From the UHGV virus genome UHGV-0038492: DNA of 64,000 bases, one strand, 5' to 3'. This DNA is from a virus. Below the pieces are notes generated by a model. It had not been told where the DNA came from and made no database searches. It saw nothing but the letters and a program-made list of their open reading frames with translations. The translations under genes and the position numbers were made by a program. Below are positions 2,784 through 10,467 of this stretch, piece by piece; position 1 is the first letter of the stretch, and every line of letters begins with the position of its first letter.

Positions 2784-5081
2784 GTGGAATACAATTCTCC
2801 TTTTCGTTTATCGGTAGACGAGTATCATCGTGATATCGATATTAACGATGCTTATCGTGAGCAGGTTGCGCTATACATTCACAACGTAACCGCACAAAAA
2901 TACCCTTTGGAATTATGTCGTAAAGAAGTTGACGAGATGTTGGCACCTGGTGGTGAATTATCAACCGAATCACCGTTGTGTAAGATGTGGGTGCGTAATC
3001 AAAAAACAGGAGACCGTGAAGAGAAATACACCACCGTTGATAAACTGTTTAAAACCGTAATTGATAAACAGATTATCTCCGCACCGTCATTAACCTTTTA
3101 TATCCCAGAACACATCAAACGTTCCAAGCTATCAGAATTCACTGCCGCTAACGTAGCTAAACGTGCAGCGGTGAAAAAAGAGATGTTTGCTGCCGAAGCA
3201 GCAGGTAATAGAGTTTTACAGATTAACAAAAAGAACGAACAGAACGCAGTCAAGACACTGAACAACGGGATGTCAGGCGCATTCTCTTCTCCATACACGA
3301 TCATCTTTAACCAATCGTCTCACTCTGTATTAACGTCAACCTGCCGTACTGCAACCTCATTCGGTAACGCAGGTAACGAACGTTTATTAGGCGGTAATCG
3401 TCATTATGACACACCGTCACGTATCATCGATCATTTCTTGTCCATCGGTACGTTAACCGATTGGGATAGCTTCAAGAAATGTATGGATACGTACGAGCTT
3501 CATTACCCAACCGTAGAAGAAGTGATGGATGTGATTCATTACTCTGCGGACTTCTACTTCAAGAACGAAGAGGGGATGGAGTTTGTCGAACACTATGTAT
3601 CAAATGTTTCTCCGCTCACTCGCGCGGCATTTGTTTACATGGGTGATTTTTATCATCTTGCGAAGTACAACGATCAGTTCATGCGCGGTTTTATTACCGC
3701 GTTGATTTCTCGCGAGATGATTGATGAAGTCGAAGACTGGGATGCTGCGGAAAAAACCATCGATGGTGACATGCAGATCATCATCTCCCAGTTCCGTACT
3801 GACGTGGTACCGATGGGTAAAGCATTCAGCCACGTTAAGAAACTCGACGATAAGAAAAAGCCATTGCCGTGGGATCAGCAGGACGACTACAAGGAACTGA
3901 TTCGTTCCGCACTGTTCTTACAGAAAACCATCGGTAAGTACGCACTTTTAATTCGTAATATCCTGACCACTAAAAACTTACCGATTAACATCGCAAGAAT
4001 GCCGGATGTGGTTCGTCGGGTAGGTGTGGTTTCAGATACCGACTCTACAATGATGACTGCACAATGGTGGGCGGTTTGGTATACCGGTAAGCATTACGGC
4101 GACGAAGCAACCCGTGTATCCAACGCAATGATTTATATTGCAACGCAGCACCTTCGTCACCTGATGGCGAGTATGTCTGCGAATATCGGTGTAGCGAAAG
4201 AACGCCTGTTCTTGTACGCGATGAAGAACGAATTTAAGTTCGATTCGTTTGCATTAACAACCAAAGCAAAACACTACTTCTCACTGATTACCGGTCAGGA
4301 AGGTCAGCTGAAAAAAGATCCCGAGCTGGAAGTAAAAGGAGTGTCTTTACGTACTTCGAACATTCCACCGATTATCATGAAGGAGTTTAAGAATACCATT
4401 AAAGGACTGTGTGAAGTCGTCGCACGCGGAGACCAGATTGAAATTATTCCGTTACTGGAAAAGGTTGCGCAGATCGAACACACCATTATGGATTCTATTC
4501 GTTCGGGTAATCCGGGTTATCTGAAAACAACGAACATTAAGGAACGTAGCGCTTATAACGAGAAGGACGAGAAAAACTATCACTACCATCGAATGTACAA
4601 CGCCATCTTTGGTCCGAAGTTTGGTCATCTGGAAGAACCGCCTTACGACGCTGTAAAACTACCGGTGGTTTTAGAAAACAAAACCAAGATTAAAGAGTGG
4701 TTGGACAGCATCGAAGATCCGATTATCCGAAACGGTGCAACCGCGTGGTTTGAGGAGAACAATTTCCGTAAATACAAAACGTTGATTCTGCCAGAGCACT
4801 TAGTAGAGAACTACGGTATTCCTAAAGAATTGATCGATATTGCGGACATTCGTCGCACGGCGTTCTCCACCGTAGAACCGTACTATCACATCCTTGAATG
4901 CTTAGGTGTGTTCATGATGGATAAGAACCGTATGCGTTTACTGTCGGATTTCTACGATAAAACTGCTGAAGACGATGGGCTGTATAAAGAGCTTGCGGAA
5001 GTACAGTATGTTAAGAAATCAGAAAGGGCAGGTGAGGATGATGAGGACGAAGATGAAGAAGAAACATTCGATGAAGAGTAA
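2784..5081 (+). CDS. large hypothetical protein with acidic C-terminus; weak candidate for the C-terminal half of a split family-B DNA polymerase
   Basis: 765-aa ORF, GTG start with GAGGA 5 nt upstream; contains 'VVSDTDS' (motif-C-like), 'KTLNNGMSGAF' (motif-B-like) and 'KAKHYF' (KKRY-like), but spacing is atypical; tail 'EDDEDEDEEETFDEE'. Confidence 0.5.
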   Translation: MEYNSPFRLSVDEYHRDIDINDAYREQVALYIHNVTAQKYPLELCRKEVDEMLAPGGELSTESPLCKMWVRNQKTGDREEKYTTVDKLFKTVIDKQIISAPSLTFYIPEHIKRSKLSEFTAANVAKRAAVKKEMFAAEAAGNRVLQINKKNEQNAVKTLNNGMSGAFSSPYTIIFNQSSHSVLTSTCRTATSFGNAGNERLLGGNRHYDTPSRIIDHFLSIGTLTDWDSFKKCMDTYELHYPTVEEVMDVIHYSADFYFKNEEGMEFVEHYVSNVSPLTRAAFVYMGDFYHLAKYNDQFMRGFITALISREMIDEVEDWDAAEKTIDGDMQIIISQFRTDVVPMGKAFSHVKKLDDKKKPLPWDQQDDYKELIRSALFLQKTIGKYALLIRNILTTKNLPINIARMPDVVRRVGVVSDTDSTMMTAQWWAVWYTGKHYGDEATRVSNAMIYIATQHLRHLMASMSANIGVAKERLFLYAMKNEFKFDSFALTTKAKHYFSLITGQEGQLKKDPELEVKGVSLRTSNIPPIIMKEFKNTIKGLCEVVARGDQIEIIPLLEKVAQIEHTIMDSIRSGNPGYLKTTNIKERSAYNEKDEKNYHYHRMYNAIFGPKFGHLEEPPYDAVKLPVVLENKTKIKEWLDSIEDPIIRNGATAWFEENNFRKYKTLILPEHLVENYGIPKELIDIADIRRTAFSTVEPYYHILECLGVFMMDKNRMRLLSDFYDKTAEDDGLYKELAEVQYVKKSERAGEDDEDEDEEETFDEE

Positions 5082-6582: not shown

Positions 6583-8421
6583 ATGGCTAAAGAGTTTAAC
6601 GATATTCCTAACAACGTAAATGCTGGCGCTGCTGGTGTAGACCCGGCTCCGTCTTTTGGTGGTGTGGGTGCTGGTGCAAGCAGCGTGGATAACACCCACG
6701 CAGCAAATGCTTTCGGTGGTATGACTAAGAATATCTCCACCTTCGATAAAGCGTTCGGCTATATGTCCTACGTTTCTGCCGCTTCACATTTCACCGCACT
6801 GATTGCGAAGATGGTTGAACGTAACCCGTACCTGAGCAAATTCCGCTGCGGTGTTATCGACGGTGTGAATCCAGAAATGGGTTCTGCGGCATACGTTGCT
6901 GCGCCAGCAGATGAAAACGGCAGCCACTGGATGTACGGTATCCTGTTCTTCGAACACGGTCAGTCTGTACGCTTCCGTGAAATCAACGGTAAAGAAACTT
7001 ATTACACCCTGGCTTCTCTGTTTGGTCAGGATGGTGTAATGGATTCTATCACCAAACAAATCTGCGAACAGCAGAACCTGCCGTCTGTGCAATTCATGGT
7101 AATGAACTGCATTCCAGACCTGGGTAAAACGCTGACTGAAGAGTGGGCTATCCAGCTGATGGGTCAGCTGACTCTGGGTATCTTTGGCCGTATTCCGGGC
7201 TACCTGGGTCAGATGAAACTGACTCGTGGCGATCGCTTCGTTGCACAGGTAACTGCGGTAGACGAAGGTTCTCTGACTGACGTTAACGGTTCTGCACAAC
7301 GTGCTGACCTGATGGTTCAAGTTGAACACACTCAGACCGGTAGCTTCGATACCAACCCGACGCTGATGTCCTCTGAACGTGTTCAGGGTTATCCGAGCGT
7401 TGCGGGTGTGGGTTACATCAACCTGCGTTACACTGGTCGTCGTGCACCTGAAAATGGCGTACAGGATTACAAACAGCTGCAAGCAGAAGTTGTTGTTTCT
7501 CTGATGGACTCTCAGTCTTCCGGGGCTATGGTACCAATCGAACGTCAGCTGATTGAACTGGCTGCCTTCGCAGAAATCGCCGCTATCGGTGGCTGGCGTG
7601 AACGCTTCATGCACTCTCTCAACAAAACCGATCGTCGTTTCTCCCGCGTTATGGAATACGTAGAGTGGGGTGACAAACGTCCTGATCTGAGCAAAATCGA
7701 TGGCAACCGCGAAGCTATCGAAGAGTGCCTGAACATGTTCGCCTACCCAGAAGCTGCGCTGGTTGTGAACCATCGTGCTGGTAACGGCATCGGTGGTCTC
7801 TCCACGATGTTCAGTGAAGTTTCCCAGGGTAACACTGGTACACTGTCTAACATCCTGACCATCCTGGACAACATGGCTCCGAAAGGTGCTACGGTGTTCA
7901 CGCAGCGTTTCGCTGAAATGCTGAAAGTTAATACCATCACCTGCAACCACGTTGTTATCGCTGGCGTGCCGACTGTTTCCGGTCAGTATTTCAGCAACAG
8001 CCAGAAACGTAGCTTCCAGGATCAGGACCTGGTGTCTGTTCTGAGCAAAGTTGGTGATAACCAACACGATGCCTACACTTACCTGTACGCGCAATCTTAC
8101 TCACACCGTCAGTTCAACGCGACTGAACAGCGTCTGTACCTGCTGAAGCTGGCCGCTTCCCTGTTCGGCAGCAAACAGCCGGTCGTAACTGGCGAGTCCA
8201 CCGATTTGGCAATCAACCCGAAATTCGCCAAAGCGCTGCTGGACTACGTGCGTGATAACTGCATCTTCCAAGTGAATGGTGTTACCGCAGTCAATAGCCT
8301 GGCTAATACGTTGTTCTTCAACAACGGCGGTGAAAACTTCACTCTGTCTGGTAACGGCCCGAATTCCTTCGGCAGTGACTACAACATGTCATTCGCTTCC
8401 GGTAACTACAGCCCTATCTGA
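6583..8421 (+). CDS. abundant protein with Gly/Ala-rich N-terminal tail; candidate nuclear-shell (chimallin-like) or major virion protein
   Basis: 612 aa; strong RBS 'aaaggataaataaaATG'; strong host-like codon bias (CTG/CGT/GGT) giving a 436-aa stop-free antisense frame. Confidence 0.7.
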   Translation: MAKEFNDIPNNVNAGAAGVDPAPSFGGVGAGASSVDNTHAANAFGGMTKNISTFDKAFGYMSYVSAASHFTALIAKMVERNPYLSKFRCGVIDGVNPEMGSAAYVAAPADENGSHWMYGILFFEHGQSVRFREINGKETYYTLASLFGQDGVMDSITKQICEQQNLPSVQFMVMNCIPDLGKTLTEEWAIQLMGQLTLGIFGRIPGYLGQMKLTRGDRFVAQVTAVDEGSLTDVNGSAQRADLMVQVEHTQTGSFDTNPTLMSSERVQGYPSVAGVGYINLRYTGRRAPENGVQDYKQLQAEVVVSLMDSQSSGAMVPIERQLIELAAFAEIAAIGGWRERFMHSLNKTDRRFSRVMEYVEWGDKRPDLSKIDGNREAIEECLNMFAYPEAALVVNHRAGNGIGGLSTMFSEVSQGNTGTLSNILTILDNMAPKGATVFTQRFAEMLKVNTITCNHVVIAGVPTVSGQYFSNSQKRSFQDQDLVSVLSKVGDNQHDAYTYLYAQSYSHRQFNATEQRLYLLKLAASLFGSKQPVVTGESTDLAINPKFAKALLDYVRDNCIFQVNGVTAVNSLANTLFFNNGGENFTLSGNGPNSFGSDYNMSFASGNYSPI

Positions 8422-8451: not shown

Positions 8452-8497
8452 TAGGGACAGGGGAAAAACCCCCTGTCCCTTCCCTCTCTTTTTTTGT
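8452..8497 (+). terminator. rho-independent terminator
   Basis: hairpin 'gggacagggg aaaaa cccctgtccc' followed by T-rich run. Confidence 0.7.
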
Positions 8498-8509
8498 TGA
8501 GGATTTGGC

Positions 8510-9877
8510 GTGAAAGACAGATTACAATACTTCGGTGTATCAGGGCGATTAATCAGTCACGATAAAATGTTACGTGACGCTTTCAAAGAGGCGGAGGAAA
8601 AGGGCTATAAACCGCCGATGATTATCAATGATGTTGCGAAATATAAAGACACCATTGAGACGTCAGAGTTGATTAACCGAATCTTACAGAACCGGATAGT
8701 CGACGAGACGCTAAATTCGGCACCTATTTGTAGTATTGATTGTGAAGCACCTATCGTTCATCGATATAATCTCGGTATGCGATGTCCTACCTGCGGCTAT
8801 GTGGTGACAGAACATCGTATTGTTTCAGAAGTCTGGATTCGTGCCCCGGAGGAAATAGGCAACTTTATTAACCCACGATTCTGGTCGATGTTTAATGCTT
8901 TCTTCGGTTCTAAACTTAAGAAGTTTAACCGAAACAAAGTGACCGTAGAACGTGGTTCTGATTTATTGATGTGGATGTTAGATCCGTGTTATAAACCTGA
9001 TAAAGACGAAGGTACTCGATCCCGAATAATCAAACGTATCTTTAGCGAGTATCAAGTTCCACGTGGTATTAGGAATTTTATTGACCATCATCGAACAATA
9101 TTCAATATCTTAACTTCTCCTGAAGTCTGGAAAGAAATTTATCCACCGACGAAAAATAACCGATATGAGAGCGAACGTACTCGCTTAGAGTGGAAAAAGT
9201 TCTTCGAAGAACAATCACACACTTTCTTTCCGGTTCATCTTCCAATCATTTCACCCAAACTGATCGTTACGGAGGAACGACGTCAGGGTATCTTTATCGA
9301 TCCTGTTTATACCAGTGCAATAGACGCGGTTAAGAACATCGCGTTACTTTATACCAATGCACGACGTATCCCAACGCATTTCATTATTAGTCGCGCATTG
9401 AAAGCAAATCGTCAGTTAGCGTACTTCTATATTGACCATCGTCAGGAGGTGATGGAAGGTAAACCTGGATTCTATCGTGCCAAATTAGGTTCAACACACA
9501 TCCCGTGGGGCGGTCGTGTAACAATCTCTCCAATCTCAGAACCACATGACGCTATGAAGGTTATTGCACCTTGGCGTTGGTTAGTGACGTTAGAATCTGT
9601 AGCTATTGAAAACAAACTCGGTCGACGGAACTTCACACCACGGCAGTGTGAACGTGTTATTGCATTTGCATCAATGCAGTACGTACCGTTGGTTCATGAA
9701 ATTATCAACGAACTTATTAAGGAGTCTCGTGGCGGTTACGGCCTGATGATATCAGCGCTACGAAACCCGACGCTTGTACAGTTGTCTATTCAGACATTAT
9801 TTATCTCAGCTGTTAACCCTGATGTTACACAGTGTTCGTTACGTATCTCCGATCGCGTCATCAAAGCTCCGAATGCT
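8510..9877 (+). CDS. RNA polymerase beta-prime subunit, N-terminal part, exon 1
   Basis: GTG start with GAGGA upstream; 'CPTCGY' zinc-finger-like element; 'RNPTLVQLSIQTLF...VIKAPNA' aligns to bacterial beta-prime 'NRAPTLHRLGIQAF...CAAYNA' immediately before the catalytic NADFDGD; exon end approximate. Confidence 0.7.
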
Positions 9878-10227
9878 AAAATTTGGCCCACTAGACGGGA
9901 AACCTCTAGTGCGTATCCCTCGAATTGCTGGGAACTCCTAAAGCTTACGATCCCGATAGGGTGGCGAAAGCCAGAAACAATTCGTAAGATAGCCTATGCT
10001 AACCAATAATGCTAAGGGTTGTGATAATGGATAACCAGCAGCGATGAAAATCGTTCAACGACTATCGAAAGGGTAAAACCGAGTAGAGTAGCTGCTTAGT
10101 TTAGCGGCGAAGTGGGGGAGACCTACGGGTAGCAATACCTACGGTTATGATATAGTCTGTGCCCATGTGAAAGCATGGGAGGGTGTCATTGCACACCTGC
10201 TCCAAAAGGAATGGAGTGGACAAACAG
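9878..10227 (+). ncRNA. group I self-splicing intron (no internal endonuclease ORF); boundaries approximate
   Basis: core elements in order: P 'gaattgctgggaa' (9922..9934), Q 'accagcagcg' (~10034), R 'gttcaacgactat' (10053..10065), S 'gatatagtc' (~10149); exon 1 ends in U, intron ends in G; downstream hairpins. Confidence 0.65.
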
Positions 10228-10467
10228 GATTTCGACGGCGACCAGTTACAGGTTAGACGTTTAGTTGATACCACGGAGATGGATTTAGCGCTGGCTTATC
10301 GTCCTGACAACGGATTTATGTCCAGCACAAACGTAGACGAAGTGTCTAGCAGCATGGTGTTACACAATGAGCTTATCAGCATGGAAAACCGTTTCTTACG
10401 CGATACCGAAGAAGATCTGGAGGCGGGTATCGCTATCGACTCAGAATTAATCTTAATGGCGGGGTAG
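10228..10467 (+). CDS. RNA polymerase beta-prime N-terminal subunit, exon 2, beginning with catalytic DFDGDQ
   Basis: 'DFDGDQLQVRRLVDTTEMDLALAYRPDNGFMSSTNV' aligns to '[32 protein letters not shown]'; no usable RBS or start codon for independent translation. Confidence 0.65.
   Translation, partial: DFDGDQLQVRRLVDTTEMDLALAYRPDNGFMSSTNVDEVSSSMVLHNELISMENRFLRDTEEDLEAGIAIDSELILMAG

What the first reader, a model, noticed from the sequence alone, without database searches (positions are those of the whole stretch)
8510..10467. Group I intron splitting the RNA polymerase beta-prime gene just before the catalytic DFDGD motif
The beta-prime reading frame stops being homologous at '...VIKAPNA' and resumes 350 nt later, in another frame, at 'DFDGDQ'. 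The intervening sequence carries the four group I core elements in the right order: P 'GAATTGCTGGGAA', Q 'ACCAGCAGCG', R 'GTTCAACGACTAT' and S 'GATATAGTC'. Exon 1 ends in U and the intron ends in G, and the downstream piece has no usable RBS. The intron has no internal endonuclease ORF. Introns in RNA polymerase genes are known in phiKZ-like phages, but this compact one sits exactly at the active site.
Basis: partly seen in the sequence, partly recalled or inferred. Interest (0 to 1): 0.85.

Follow-up and report, generated by a model that had tools for sequence, protein, structure and literature searches.

The report
Self-splicing intron in phage RNA polymerase
A 350-base self-splicing group I intron interrupts a giant phage's own RNA polymerase gene inside the codons for its catalytic NADFDGD motif; the call is correct, but such introns are already known at this spot in phiKZ-type phages, so it is a new example, not a new phenomenon.

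Summary
The observation and the interpretation both hold. Window 9878-10227 is a 350-nt, ORF-less group I intron (Rfam RF00028, 60.7 bits against a cut-off of 50, E 6e-13). It splits the gene for the N-terminal beta-prime-like subunit of a jumbo-phage non-virion RNA polymerase, the phiKZ gp55 family. Joining 9877 to 10228 gives one 535-aa protein reading ...RVIKAPNA|DFDGDQL..., which aligns without a break to phiKZ gp55 (PDB 7OGP_A). A 98.6%-identical metagenomic phage genome lacks exactly these 350 nt. Eight homologous introns keep 98% of 85 base pairs, 34 of them through compensatory changes. One of those covarying pairs links the last exon codon to the internal guide sequence.

The novelty is modest. 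phiKZ gene 55 carries an HNH-bearing intron 3 nt upstream. The Goslar GenBank record annotates an intron at the orthologous locus. Several SPN3US-like phages carry a 70-73% identical intron at the same site.

Extra findings:
- The intron is 98% identical between two phage lineages whose flanking exons are about 75% identical, which points to recent lateral transfer.
- The intron-less sister genome has 8 silent substitutions clustered around the empty site.
- At least four Rfam-supported insertion sites lie within the NADFDGD(Q) codons across related phages.

The parts
8499..8503 (+). Shine-Dalgarno-like GAGGA, 6 nt upstream of the GTG start of the split gene
   Evidence: Read from the sequence; not tested.
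8510..9877 (+). Exon 1 of the nvRNAP beta-prime N-terminal subunit gene (456 codons, ends ...RVIKAPNA; last base U)
   Evidence: ORF list. The spliced protein hits phrog_2987 'RNA polymerase beta subunit' at E 2e-161 and phiKZ gp55, PDB 7OGP_A, at E 8e-37.
9878..10227 (+). Group I intron, 350 nt, no ORF, probably subgroup IA; ends in omega-G at 10227
   Evidence: Rfam RF00028 hit at 9867-10179, 60.7 bits, E 6e-13. Exactly this stretch is absent from the 98.6%-identical contig L015. Covariation.
9875..9887 (+). P1: exon GCU (9875-9877) pairs with the internal guide sequence GGC (9885-9887), with U9877-G9885 at the 5' splice site. Inner pairs are A9878-U9884 and A9879-U9883.
   Evidence: The U.G pair is invariant in 8/8 homologs. 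The neighbouring pair is C-G in phages with an Ala GCU codon and G-C in phages with a Gly GGU codon.
9889..9911 (+). P2 hairpin (CACUAGACGG / CCUCUAGUG)
   Evidence: 9 pairs, 3 with compensatory changes.
9916..9921 (+). P3 5' strand; pairs with 10114-10120
   Evidence: 7 pairs, 4 with compensatory changes.
9926..10040 (+). P4 (9926-9931 / 10035-10040) and P5 (9936-9938 / 10029-10031) enclosing an extended P5 arm at 9944-10021. The arm includes a GAAA-capped hairpin at 9962-9973.
   Evidence: Rfam alignment. P5a has 6 of 7 pairs with compensatory changes. Coordinates.
10041..10054 (+). P6 hairpin GCGAU-GAAA-AUCGU
   Evidence: Base pairs GCG/CGU are invariant in all homologs; the distal part is replaced by longer hairpins in relatives.
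10060..10064 (+). This is the guanosine-binding helix.
   Evidence: 5 pairs written as a pseudoknot with P3. One U-A to C-G compensatory change in Proteus phage 7.
10065..10108 (+). P7.1 / P7.2 hairpins between P7 and P3' (P7.2 is 10091-10096 / 10103-10108)
   Evidence: P7.2 has 5 of 6 pairs with compensatory changes. The P7.1 alignment is ambiguous. Extra helices at this position are the mark of subgroup IA (established knowledge, Michel and Westhof classification).
10114..10146 (+). P3 3' strand (10114-10120) and P8 (10121-10123 / 10143-10146, with a GCAA-capped distal hairpin)
10162..10217 (+). P9 (10162-10179), P9.1 (10180-10198) and P9.2 (10199-10217) hairpins
   Evidence: P9 has 5 of 7 pairs with compensatory changes and P9.2 has 2 of 5. 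P9.1 is nearly invariant.
10228..10467 (+). Exon 2 (DFDGDQLQVRR... 79 codons plus TAG at 10465-10467), carrying the catalytic Asp triad
   Evidence: It is contiguous with exon 1 in the intron-less alleles L015, L016, SPN3US and phiEaH2.

Best explanation
Window 8510-10467 is one gene for the N-terminal beta-prime-like subunit of a jumbo-phage non-virion RNA polymerase, the phiKZ gp55 family. It is interrupted by a 350-nt ORF-less group I intron at 9878-10227.

Inferred mechanism: in the primary transcript the intron folds into the P1-P9.2 ribozyme. Exon bases GCU(9875-9877) pair with the guide sequence GGC(9885-9887), placing U9877 opposite G9885. An external guanosine bound at P7 attacks after U9877. 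The freed exon then attacks after the terminal G10227. This joins ...AAU GCU to GAU UUC... and creates the codons for NADFDGD, the Mg2+-binding loop of the active site. Only spliced mRNA can give an active enzyme. Unspliced RNA would give a 499-aa product lacking the Asp triad.

Shown in silico: the ribozyme fold and its conservation, the exact boundaries, and the intact spliced reading frame.

Inferred, not shown: catalysis itself. The intron is also inferred to be a derivative of an HNH-endonuclease-bearing mobile intron that lost its ORF, and to have been exchanged recently between related phages.
For: (1) Rfam RF00028 hit at 9867-10179: 60.7 bits against a gathering score of 50, E 6.3e-13, full model length. 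It is the only Rfam hit in the 64 kb.
(2) Splicing 9877|10228 gives an in-frame 535-aa protein. It aligns end to end across the junction with phiKZ gp55 (PDB 7OGP_A, E 8e-37, 'KAPNADFDGDQL' identical) and with phrog_2987 (E 2e-161).
(3) IMG/VR contig L015 is 98.6% identical over 7 kb and lacks exactly 9878-10227. L016, SPN3US and phiEaH2 are also uninterrupted at this point.
(4) Eight homologous introns of five distinct sequence types share the fold. 98.4% of pair cells form standard pairs and 34 of 85 pairs show compensatory changes. With partners slid by 1-3 columns the figures are 36-45% and 2-6 pairs. 0 of 500 shuffles reach the observed values.
(5) The P1 U.G pair at the splice site is invariant. 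The adjacent pair covaries with the exon codon: GCU/GGC against GGU/GCC.
(6) All 7 differences from L014 and all 4 from L013 lie in loops or junctions or keep pairing through G.U.
(7) Homologs in Proteus phage 7 and phiKp_32 carry an HNH_3/NUMOD1 ORF in the P1 loop.
(8) The window and L014 introns are 98% identical while their exons are 72-76% identical.
Against: There are no RNA or protein data for this phage, so splicing is inferred. P10 is weak: GAUUU against UUUAAA allows only 2+2 pairs. A long-read transcriptome of phiKZ found no spliced reads for its predicted introns under the conditions used (PMC10914365), so in vivo evidence is thin even for the best-studied relative. However, the deposited phiKZ nvRNAP chain is the spliced sequence. 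The subgroup IA assignment rests on helix position only, and P7.1 is poorly aligned.
Confidence: 0.93

Rival explanations
1. A truly split gene: two polypeptides (456-499 aa and about 79-94 aa) are made separately and assemble, as other beta/beta-prime pieces of these phage polymerases do. The intervening RNA is not removed.
For: Jumbo-phage RNAP beta and beta-prime are already divided into several polypeptides (PMC7598289). GenBank records of relatives annotate the two pieces as separate CDSs.
Against: The spacer is a covariation-supported ribozyme. Near-identical and more distant relatives encode one continuous protein at exactly this point. The only upstream in-frame start (GTG 10183) has no spacing to its GGGAGG and is buried in P9/P9.1. 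The split would fall inside the NADFDGD loop.
Confidence: 0.02
2. A decayed, splicing-incompetent intron relic, so the gene is a pseudogene in this phage.
For: The endonuclease ORF has been lost. P10 is weak.
Against: Every core helix is intact. Substitutions among three near-identical copies avoid or preserve pairs. The gene encodes the catalytic loop of a polymerase that is needed for middle and late transcription in relatives (PMC8287921). Both exons remain open and conserved.
Confidence: 0.03
3. An assembly or chimera artefact that placed an unrelated intron-like sequence into the gene.
For: The window appears to be metagenome-derived: its closest matches are IMG/VR contigs, and no INPHARED phage matches at megablast level.
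Against: The same insertion at the same base is seen in two further independent contigs (L013, L014) and in at least eight cultured phages, with a matching guide sequence.
Confidence: 0.01

Closest known systems
phiKZ gene 55 / gp56 / 56.1 group I intron (nvRNAP beta-prime N-terminal subunit)
   Same: Same host gene family (E 8e-37) and same NADFDGD motif. Same ribozyme family (RF00028, 75.6 bits), with similar P4, P7 and 3' P9.x architecture. Its P1 also has a U.G pair at the splice site (CCUAAU / GUUGGG, read). The PDB chain 7OGP_A is the spliced sequence.
   Different: Inserted 3 nt upstream (KAPN|ADFDGD against KAPNA|DFDGD). It carries a 334-aa HNH_3/NUMOD1 endonuclease, gp56, and is about 1.4 kb long, against 350 nt with no ORF here.
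Introns at the identical site in SPN3US-like phages (SPLA3, EC001, Lh1B, JN03, 1252, SPLA5c; Proteus phage 7 / SaP7; Klebsiella phiKp_32; Raoultella VB_ZK_P1)
   Same: Same insertion point, after the codon preceding DFDGD. 70-73% identity over the full intron length. Same helices, with compensatory changes. SPLA3, EC001 and the Raoultella phage copies are also ORF-less at 356-365 nt.
   Different: Most of these hosts have NGDFDGD (Gly GGU) with guide GCC, instead of NADFDGD (Ala GCU) with guide GGC. Proteus phage 7 and phiKp_32 keep an HNH ORF in the P1 loop. None of these records annotates the intron.
PhiPA3 gp210 intron in the vRNAP beta subunit gene (Birkholz et al. 2024, PMC11620839)
   Same: A putative group I intron in a chimallivirus RNAP gene, placed right after conserved catalytic-region Asp codons. 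It has an HNH nicking homing endonuclease of the same general type as those in the homologs here.
   Different: It sits in a different gene (virion RNAP beta, not non-virion beta-prime) and contains the endonuclease. Competitive function was shown experimentally there; nothing comparable is shown here.
Phage T4 td / nrdB / sunY group IA introns
   Same: [quoted passage not shown] Basis: established knowledge.
   Different: Different host genes. In T4, splicing is coupled to translation (Sandegren and Sjoberg 2007, cited in PMC10914365). phiKZ-like phages are reported to separate transcription from translation in a phage nucleus (PMC12908238). Whether this phage forms a nucleus was not shown.

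Membership tests
Group I intron (Rfam RF00028) | Covariance-model score at or above the curated gathering score | tested here: met
   60.7 bits against 50, E 6.3e-13, model positions 1-253 of 253.
Group I intron (Rfam RF00028) | Conserved core helices P3-P8, including the P3/P7 pseudoknot, maintained in evolution | tested here: met
   85 pairs, 98.4% of cells paired, 34 pairs with compensatory changes. Slid controls give 36-45%.
Group I intron (Rfam RF00028) | 5' splice site after a U that forms a U.G wobble with the internal guide sequence in P1 | tested here: met
   U9877-G9885 is invariant in 8/8 homologs. The adjacent pair covaries with the exon codon.
Group I intron (Rfam RF00028) | Terminal guanosine (omega-G) at the 3' splice site | tested here: met
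   G10227. All eight homologs end in ...ACAAACAG or ...ACAATCAG.
Group I intron (Rfam RF00028) | Precise excision restores the host reading frame | tested here: met
   Removing 9878-10227 gives a 535-aa ORF. Its junction equals the intron-less alleles L015 and L016 base for base.
Group I intron (Rfam RF00028) | GTP-dependent self-splicing of the RNA | not testable with these tools
   Needs an in vitro transcript and labelled GTP, or RT-PCR from infected cells.
Subgroup IA group I introns | Additional helices P7.1/P7.2 between P7 and P3' | tested here: inconclusive
   Two hairpins lie at 10065-10108. P7.2 is strongly supported (5 of 6 pairs compensatory). P7.1 is ambiguous in the alignment. No subgroup-specific model was available.
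Mobile (homing) group I intron | Intron-encoded homing endonuclease | tested here: not met
   No ORF longer than about 45 codons in the intron. No tblastn similarity anywhere in the 64-kb window to the HNH ORFs of homologous introns. Homologs in Proteus phage 7 and phiKp_32 do carry HNH_3/NUMOD1 ORFs.
Mobile (homing) group I intron | Presence/absence polymorphism at one site among close relatives, and intron phylogeny discordant with the host gene | tested here: met
   Window and L013 (intron present) against L015 (absent) at 98.6% identity. L014 (present) against L016 (absent). The intron is 98% identical between window and L014 while their exons are 72-76% identical.
Jumbo-phage nvRNAP beta-prime N-terminal subunit (phiKZ gp55 family) | Full-length homology to gp55, including the double-psi beta-barrel region and the NADFDGD Mg-binding loop | tested here: met
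   PDB 7OGP_A at E 8e-37 over residues 68-505. AR9 beta-prime at E 5e-8. phrog_2987 at E 2e-161. NADFDGD appears only after splicing.
Intein | In-frame protein-coding insertion removed at protein level | tested here: not met
   The insert is 350 nt, not a multiple of 3, and has stop codons in all frames.

The most novel reading that the evidence does not exclude
The 21 nt encoding NADFDGD in chimallivirus nvRNAP beta-prime genes may be an active homing battleground. At least four Rfam-supported group I introns occupy different positions in or at the edge of it: phiKZ N|A, this window A|D, Vibrio phage 2 TSL-2019 D|F, and PA7 DFDGD|Q. A fifth, unclassified insertion lies after DFDG in Raoultella and Klebsiella phages. 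The window's ORF-less intron moved very recently between phages whose exons differ by about 25%, presumably mobilised in trans or by recombination during co-infection. The block of 8 consecutive silent substitutions around the empty site in the intron-less sister genome would then be naturally selected resistance to the cognate HNH nickase. This would be the natural counterpart of the engineered silent-mutation gp178 allele in Birkholz et al. 2024.
Probability: 0.35. Interest if true: 0.55.

Novelty: new member of a known kind. Interest (0 to 1): 0.35.

Why it matters
For annotation, the two pieces should be joined into one CDS. Public records of related phages list them as separate 'beta subunit 1/2', 'hypothetical' or even 'alpha subunit' proteins and miss the intron, so the catalytic subunit looks truncated.

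For biology, the phage's middle and late transcription enzyme cannot be made without RNA splicing. That places a ribozyme step at the heart of the infection programme of a phiKZ-like phage. If this phage forms a nucleus like its relatives, splicing would take place away from ribosomes.

The natural trio is ready-made material for studying how endonuclease-less introns spread and how target genes become immune. The trio is an intron-containing genome, a near-identical intron-less genome with a silently recoded target, and a distant genome carrying the same intron. None of this changes the current picture of group I introns in phages.

Tried and rejected
- Megablast of the whole gene against 50,697 phage records found nothing. 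The phage itself is not in that collection; only blastn and tblastn found relatives.
- Pfam on the separate exon products gave no significant family. The Pfam RNAP models do not see these divergent subunits, whereas PHROGs and PDB searches of the spliced protein do.
- An intein and a simple frameshift were rejected: the insert is 350 nt, has stops in all frames and is a ribozyme.
- I looked for an endonuclease that could mobilise the intron. tblastn of three HNH intron ORFs against the window gave nothing better than E 0.5. The rest of the roughly 225-kb genome was not available.
- RNAalifold alone missed P6 and P7, because of an alignment gap and the pseudoknot, and it proposed a GUCU/GGAC pairing of invariant bases. 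I replaced these by hand before counting pairs.
- I tried to classify the second insertion in the Raoultella phage: no Rfam match even at E<=1.
- I tried to show that the upstream 612-aa protein is chimallin: no PDB hit and no significant similarity to phiKZ gp54. Only synteny supports it.
- cmscan at the gathering threshold did not recover the intron annotated in the Goslar record, nor one in Aeromonas phage ACP1. Those two were therefore not counted as verified insertion sites.

Full report
**Observation.** The ORF that starts at GTG 8510, preceded by GAGGA at 8499-8503, reads ...CSLRISDRVIKAPNA up to base 9877. It then continues for 44 unrelated codons to a TAA at 10007-10009. 'DFDGDQLQVRR...' begins at 10228 in another frame and runs to TAG at 10465-10467. 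The intervening 350 nt (47% G+C, against 46% for the window) contain no ORF longer than about 45 codons in any frame. Every sequence statement in the finding is correct.

**Is it a group I intron?** A scan of the whole 64-kb window against Rfam 15 at gathering thresholds gives a single hit. It is RF00028 Intron_gpI at 9867-10179 on the + strand, with 60.7 bits against a cut-off of 50, E 6.3e-13, covering the full model. The 48 nt between the end of the Rfam match and 10227 form two further hairpins, P9.1 and P9.2. The RNA folds more stably than shuffled controls (-114 kcal/mol, z = -3.7).

**Boundaries.** Joining 9877 to 10228 gives an in-frame 535-aa protein with ...RVIKAPNA|DFDGDQL.... This protein matches PHROG 2987 'RNA polymerase beta subunit' at E 2e-161. 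It matches phiKZ gp55, the beta-prime-like N-terminal subunit of the non-virion RNA polymerase, at E 8e-37 (PDB 7OGP chain A). That alignment runs straight through the junction, where 'KAPNADFDGDQL' is identical.

Independent proof of the boundaries comes from IMG/VR. Contig UViG_3300045988_095954 (L015) is 98.6% identical to the window over 7 kb and lacks exactly 9878-10227, reading ...AACGCT|GACTTT.... A more distant relative (L016), Salmonella phage SPN3US and Erwinia phage phiEaH2 are also uninterrupted there. A one-base shift of both splice sites would encode the same protein. It is excluded by GCT in both intron-less alleles and by the U.G and omega-G rules.

**Conservation of the fold.** blastn finds 70-73% identical full-length copies of the intron at the same site in:
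- Proteus phage 7 and Salmonella phage SaP7;
- Salmonella phages SPLA3, SPLA5c, JN03 and 1252;
- Escherichia phages EC001 and Lh1B;
- Klebsiella phage phiKp_32 and Raoultella phage VB_ZK_P1.

All the fetched copies pass the Rfam threshold, at 52-69 bits. I aligned eight copies of five distinct sequence types, with the ORFs removed from two of them. I took the RNAalifold consensus, corrected P6, and added P7 as a pseudoknot. On this 85-pair structure:
- 98.4% of cells are standard pairs;
- 34 pairs show changes on both sides;
- sliding the 3' partners by 1-3 columns gives 36-45% paired and 2-6 such pairs;
- no shuffle of 500 reaches the observed values.

P1 is the most telling helix. U at the last exon position pairs with G of the guide sequence in all eight copies. 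The next pair is C-G in phages whose last exon codon is GCU (Ala) and G-C in those with GGU (Gly). The ribozyme therefore tracks its exon. The few differences among the three near-identical copies (window, L013, L014) lie in loops or junctions or convert pairs to G.U. Two hairpins between P7 and P3' (10065-10108) point to subgroup IA, the usual phage type. P7.2 is well supported, P7.1 is not, and no subgroup model was available.

**Mechanism.** Shown in silico are a conserved ribozyme fold, a guide sequence matched to the exon, a terminal G, and a reading frame restored by exact excision. By the established group I pathway I infer the following steps. External guanosine bound at P7 (10060-10064 / 10153-10157) attacks after U9877. 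The exon's 3' OH then attacks after G10227. The ligated mRNA encodes the NADFDGD loop, which holds the catalytic Mg2+ (DFDGD in gp55, PMC8287921). Unspliced RNA would yield a 499-aa protein without the Asp triad. Exon 2 has no credible start of its own, because GTG 10183 abuts its GGGAGG and lies inside P9/P9.1. P10 is weak.

**What kind of phage.** The window's own phage is absent from INPHARED at megablast level. Its polymerase subunit is 67-69% identical to those of phiEaH2 and SPN3US. Downstream gene order, including an SbcD-like nuclease, matches SPN3US-like genomes. In phiKZ, PA7 and Goslar the gene just upstream of this subunit is about 630 aa; it is annotated as the nuclear shell protein in phiKZ and PA7, while the Goslar record calls it hypothetical. 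The window has a 612-aa gene in that place, but I could not demonstrate homology.

**Comparison with what is known.** Group I introns in phiKZ RNAP genes have been predicted since the genome paper, involving gp56, gp72 and gp179 (cited in PMC10914365 and PMC11512511).

- phiKZ gene 55 is interrupted by an intron carrying the HNH/NUMOD1 endonuclease gp56 (RF00028 at 75.6 bits). Its exons join as KAPN|ADFDGD, 3 nt upstream of the site used here. Its P1 is CCUAAU/GUUGGG.
- The deposited nvRNAP chain is the fusion 'PHIKZ055 ... PHIKZ056.1'.
- The Goslar GenBank record already annotates 'Intron_gpI' plus an HNH protein directly after the orthologous exon 1.
- PhiPA3 gp210 is a functional HNH nickase in a putative group I intron of a virion-RNAP beta gene (PMC11620839).

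The window therefore holds a new, ORF-less member of a known class. It is not the first intron at this active site.

**Additional findings.**

1. Lateral transfer. The window and contig L014 have 72-76% identical exons but 98% identical introns (343 of 350). Identity switches within about 25 nt of each splice site.

2. Presence/absence polymorphism occurs in both lineages: window and L013 against L015, and L014 against L016.

3. Silent-site cluster. Between the window and intron-less L015 there are 99 differences in 7011 aligned bases. Eight of them are consecutive third-codon positions, at 9862, 9865, 9868, 9871, 9874, 10230, 10233 and 10236, and all are silent. No other difference lies within 258 nt upstream. 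The binomial P is about 4e-9 per 30-nt window, or about 9e-7 after correction for the number of windows. This looks like a co-conversion tract or a recoded, nuclease-resistant target, but polarity is mixed: L015 is the odd one out at four positions and the window at two or three. Position 9874 is T in both intron-containing lineages and C in both intron-less ones.

4. Endonuclease ORFs. Homologs in Proteus phage 7 and phiKp_32 keep a 286-339-aa HNH_3/NUMOD1 ORF in the P1 loop. No homolog exists in the window.

5. A hotspot of insertion sites. Four Rfam-supported introns use different sites in or at the edge of the same motif:
   - phiKZ N|A;
   - this family A(G)|D;
   - Vibrio phage 2 TSL-2019 NAD|FDGD;
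   - PA7 DFDGD|Q.

   Each site follows a U. The Raoultella and Klebsiella phages have, after a 12-nt micro-exon (GATTTTGACGGT), a second insertion of about 330 nt. It has a P1-like U.G pair and a terminal G but no Rfam match.

**Verdict.** It is a good annotation catch and a clean example, with some population-genetic interest. It belongs to a class already described in phiKZ-like phages.

Noticed in passing
L015 (IMGVR_UViG_3300045988_095954) against window 9862-9874 and 10230-10236: A 98.6%-identical genome lacks the intron exactly. It differs from the window at 8 consecutive silent third-codon positions flanking the empty site (P about 4e-9). This could be a co-conversion tract or a nuclease-resistant recoded target.
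   Followed up: yes
L014 (IMGVR_UViG_3300045988_113438) 4369-4718 against window 9878-10227: The intron is 98% identical although the flanking exons are only 72-76% identical. Identity switches within about 25 nt of each splice site, implying recent lateral transfer of an ORF-less intron.
   Followed up: yes
L007 (Raoultella phage VB_ZK_P1) about 2859-3201; L006 (Klebsiella phage phiKp_32) from 2860: After the homologous intron comes a 12-nt micro-exon, GATTTTGACGGT (DFDG). It is followed by a second insertion of about 330 nt with a P1-like GGU|AA...UUGCC and a terminal G. Joining gives DFDG|DTMYCYVL. There is no Rfam match even at E<=1.
   Followed up: partly
L004 (phiKZ), L021 (PA7), L018 (Vibrio phage 2 TSL-2019), L020 (Goslar): Group I introns use different positions in the same motif: phiKZ KAPN|ADFDGD, PA7 DFDGD|QLNL, and Vibrio NAD|FDGDQ. 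Goslar has an annotated Intron_gpI plus an HNH gene after ...YNAD(F), and possibly a DGD micro-exon at L020 5138. The Goslar junctions were not resolved.
   Followed up: partly
L001 (Proteus phage 7) 2138-2998; L006 (phiKp_32) 1471-2490: Homologous introns carry HNH_3/NUMOD1 (I-HmuI-like) endonuclease ORFs inserted in the P1 loop. The window's copy looks like the ORF-deleted form.
   Followed up: partly
GenBank records MT679221, OR413581, MN445185, LC768500, PV662128: The intron is not annotated in any of these records. The two exons are listed as separate proteins ('beta subunit 1/2', 'hypothetical protein', and in one case 'RNA polymerase alpha subunit').
   Followed up: no
L005 (SPN3US) 2851-2853 against L001-L003: Intron-less SPN3US uses GGA for the Gly codon before the site. 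All eight aligned intron-containing alleles end that codon in U, as the U.G splice-site pair requires.
   Followed up: partly
window 6583-8421 (+): A 612-aa protein (phrog_8316, unknown function) occupies the position held by the nuclear shell protein (chimallin) upstream of this RNAP gene in phiKZ and PA7 (and by a hypothetical ~630-aa protein in Goslar). No PDB hit and no significant similarity to phiKZ gp54 were found.
   Followed up: partly
window 8454-8496 (+): A G+C-rich hairpin (GGGACAGGGG-AAAAA-CCCCCTGTCCC) followed by a T-run lies between the upstream gene and the RNAP gene. It looks like an intrinsic terminator.
   Followed up: no
window 1-64000: There are no tRNA genes and no other Rfam family at gathering threshold in the whole window.
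   Followed up: yes
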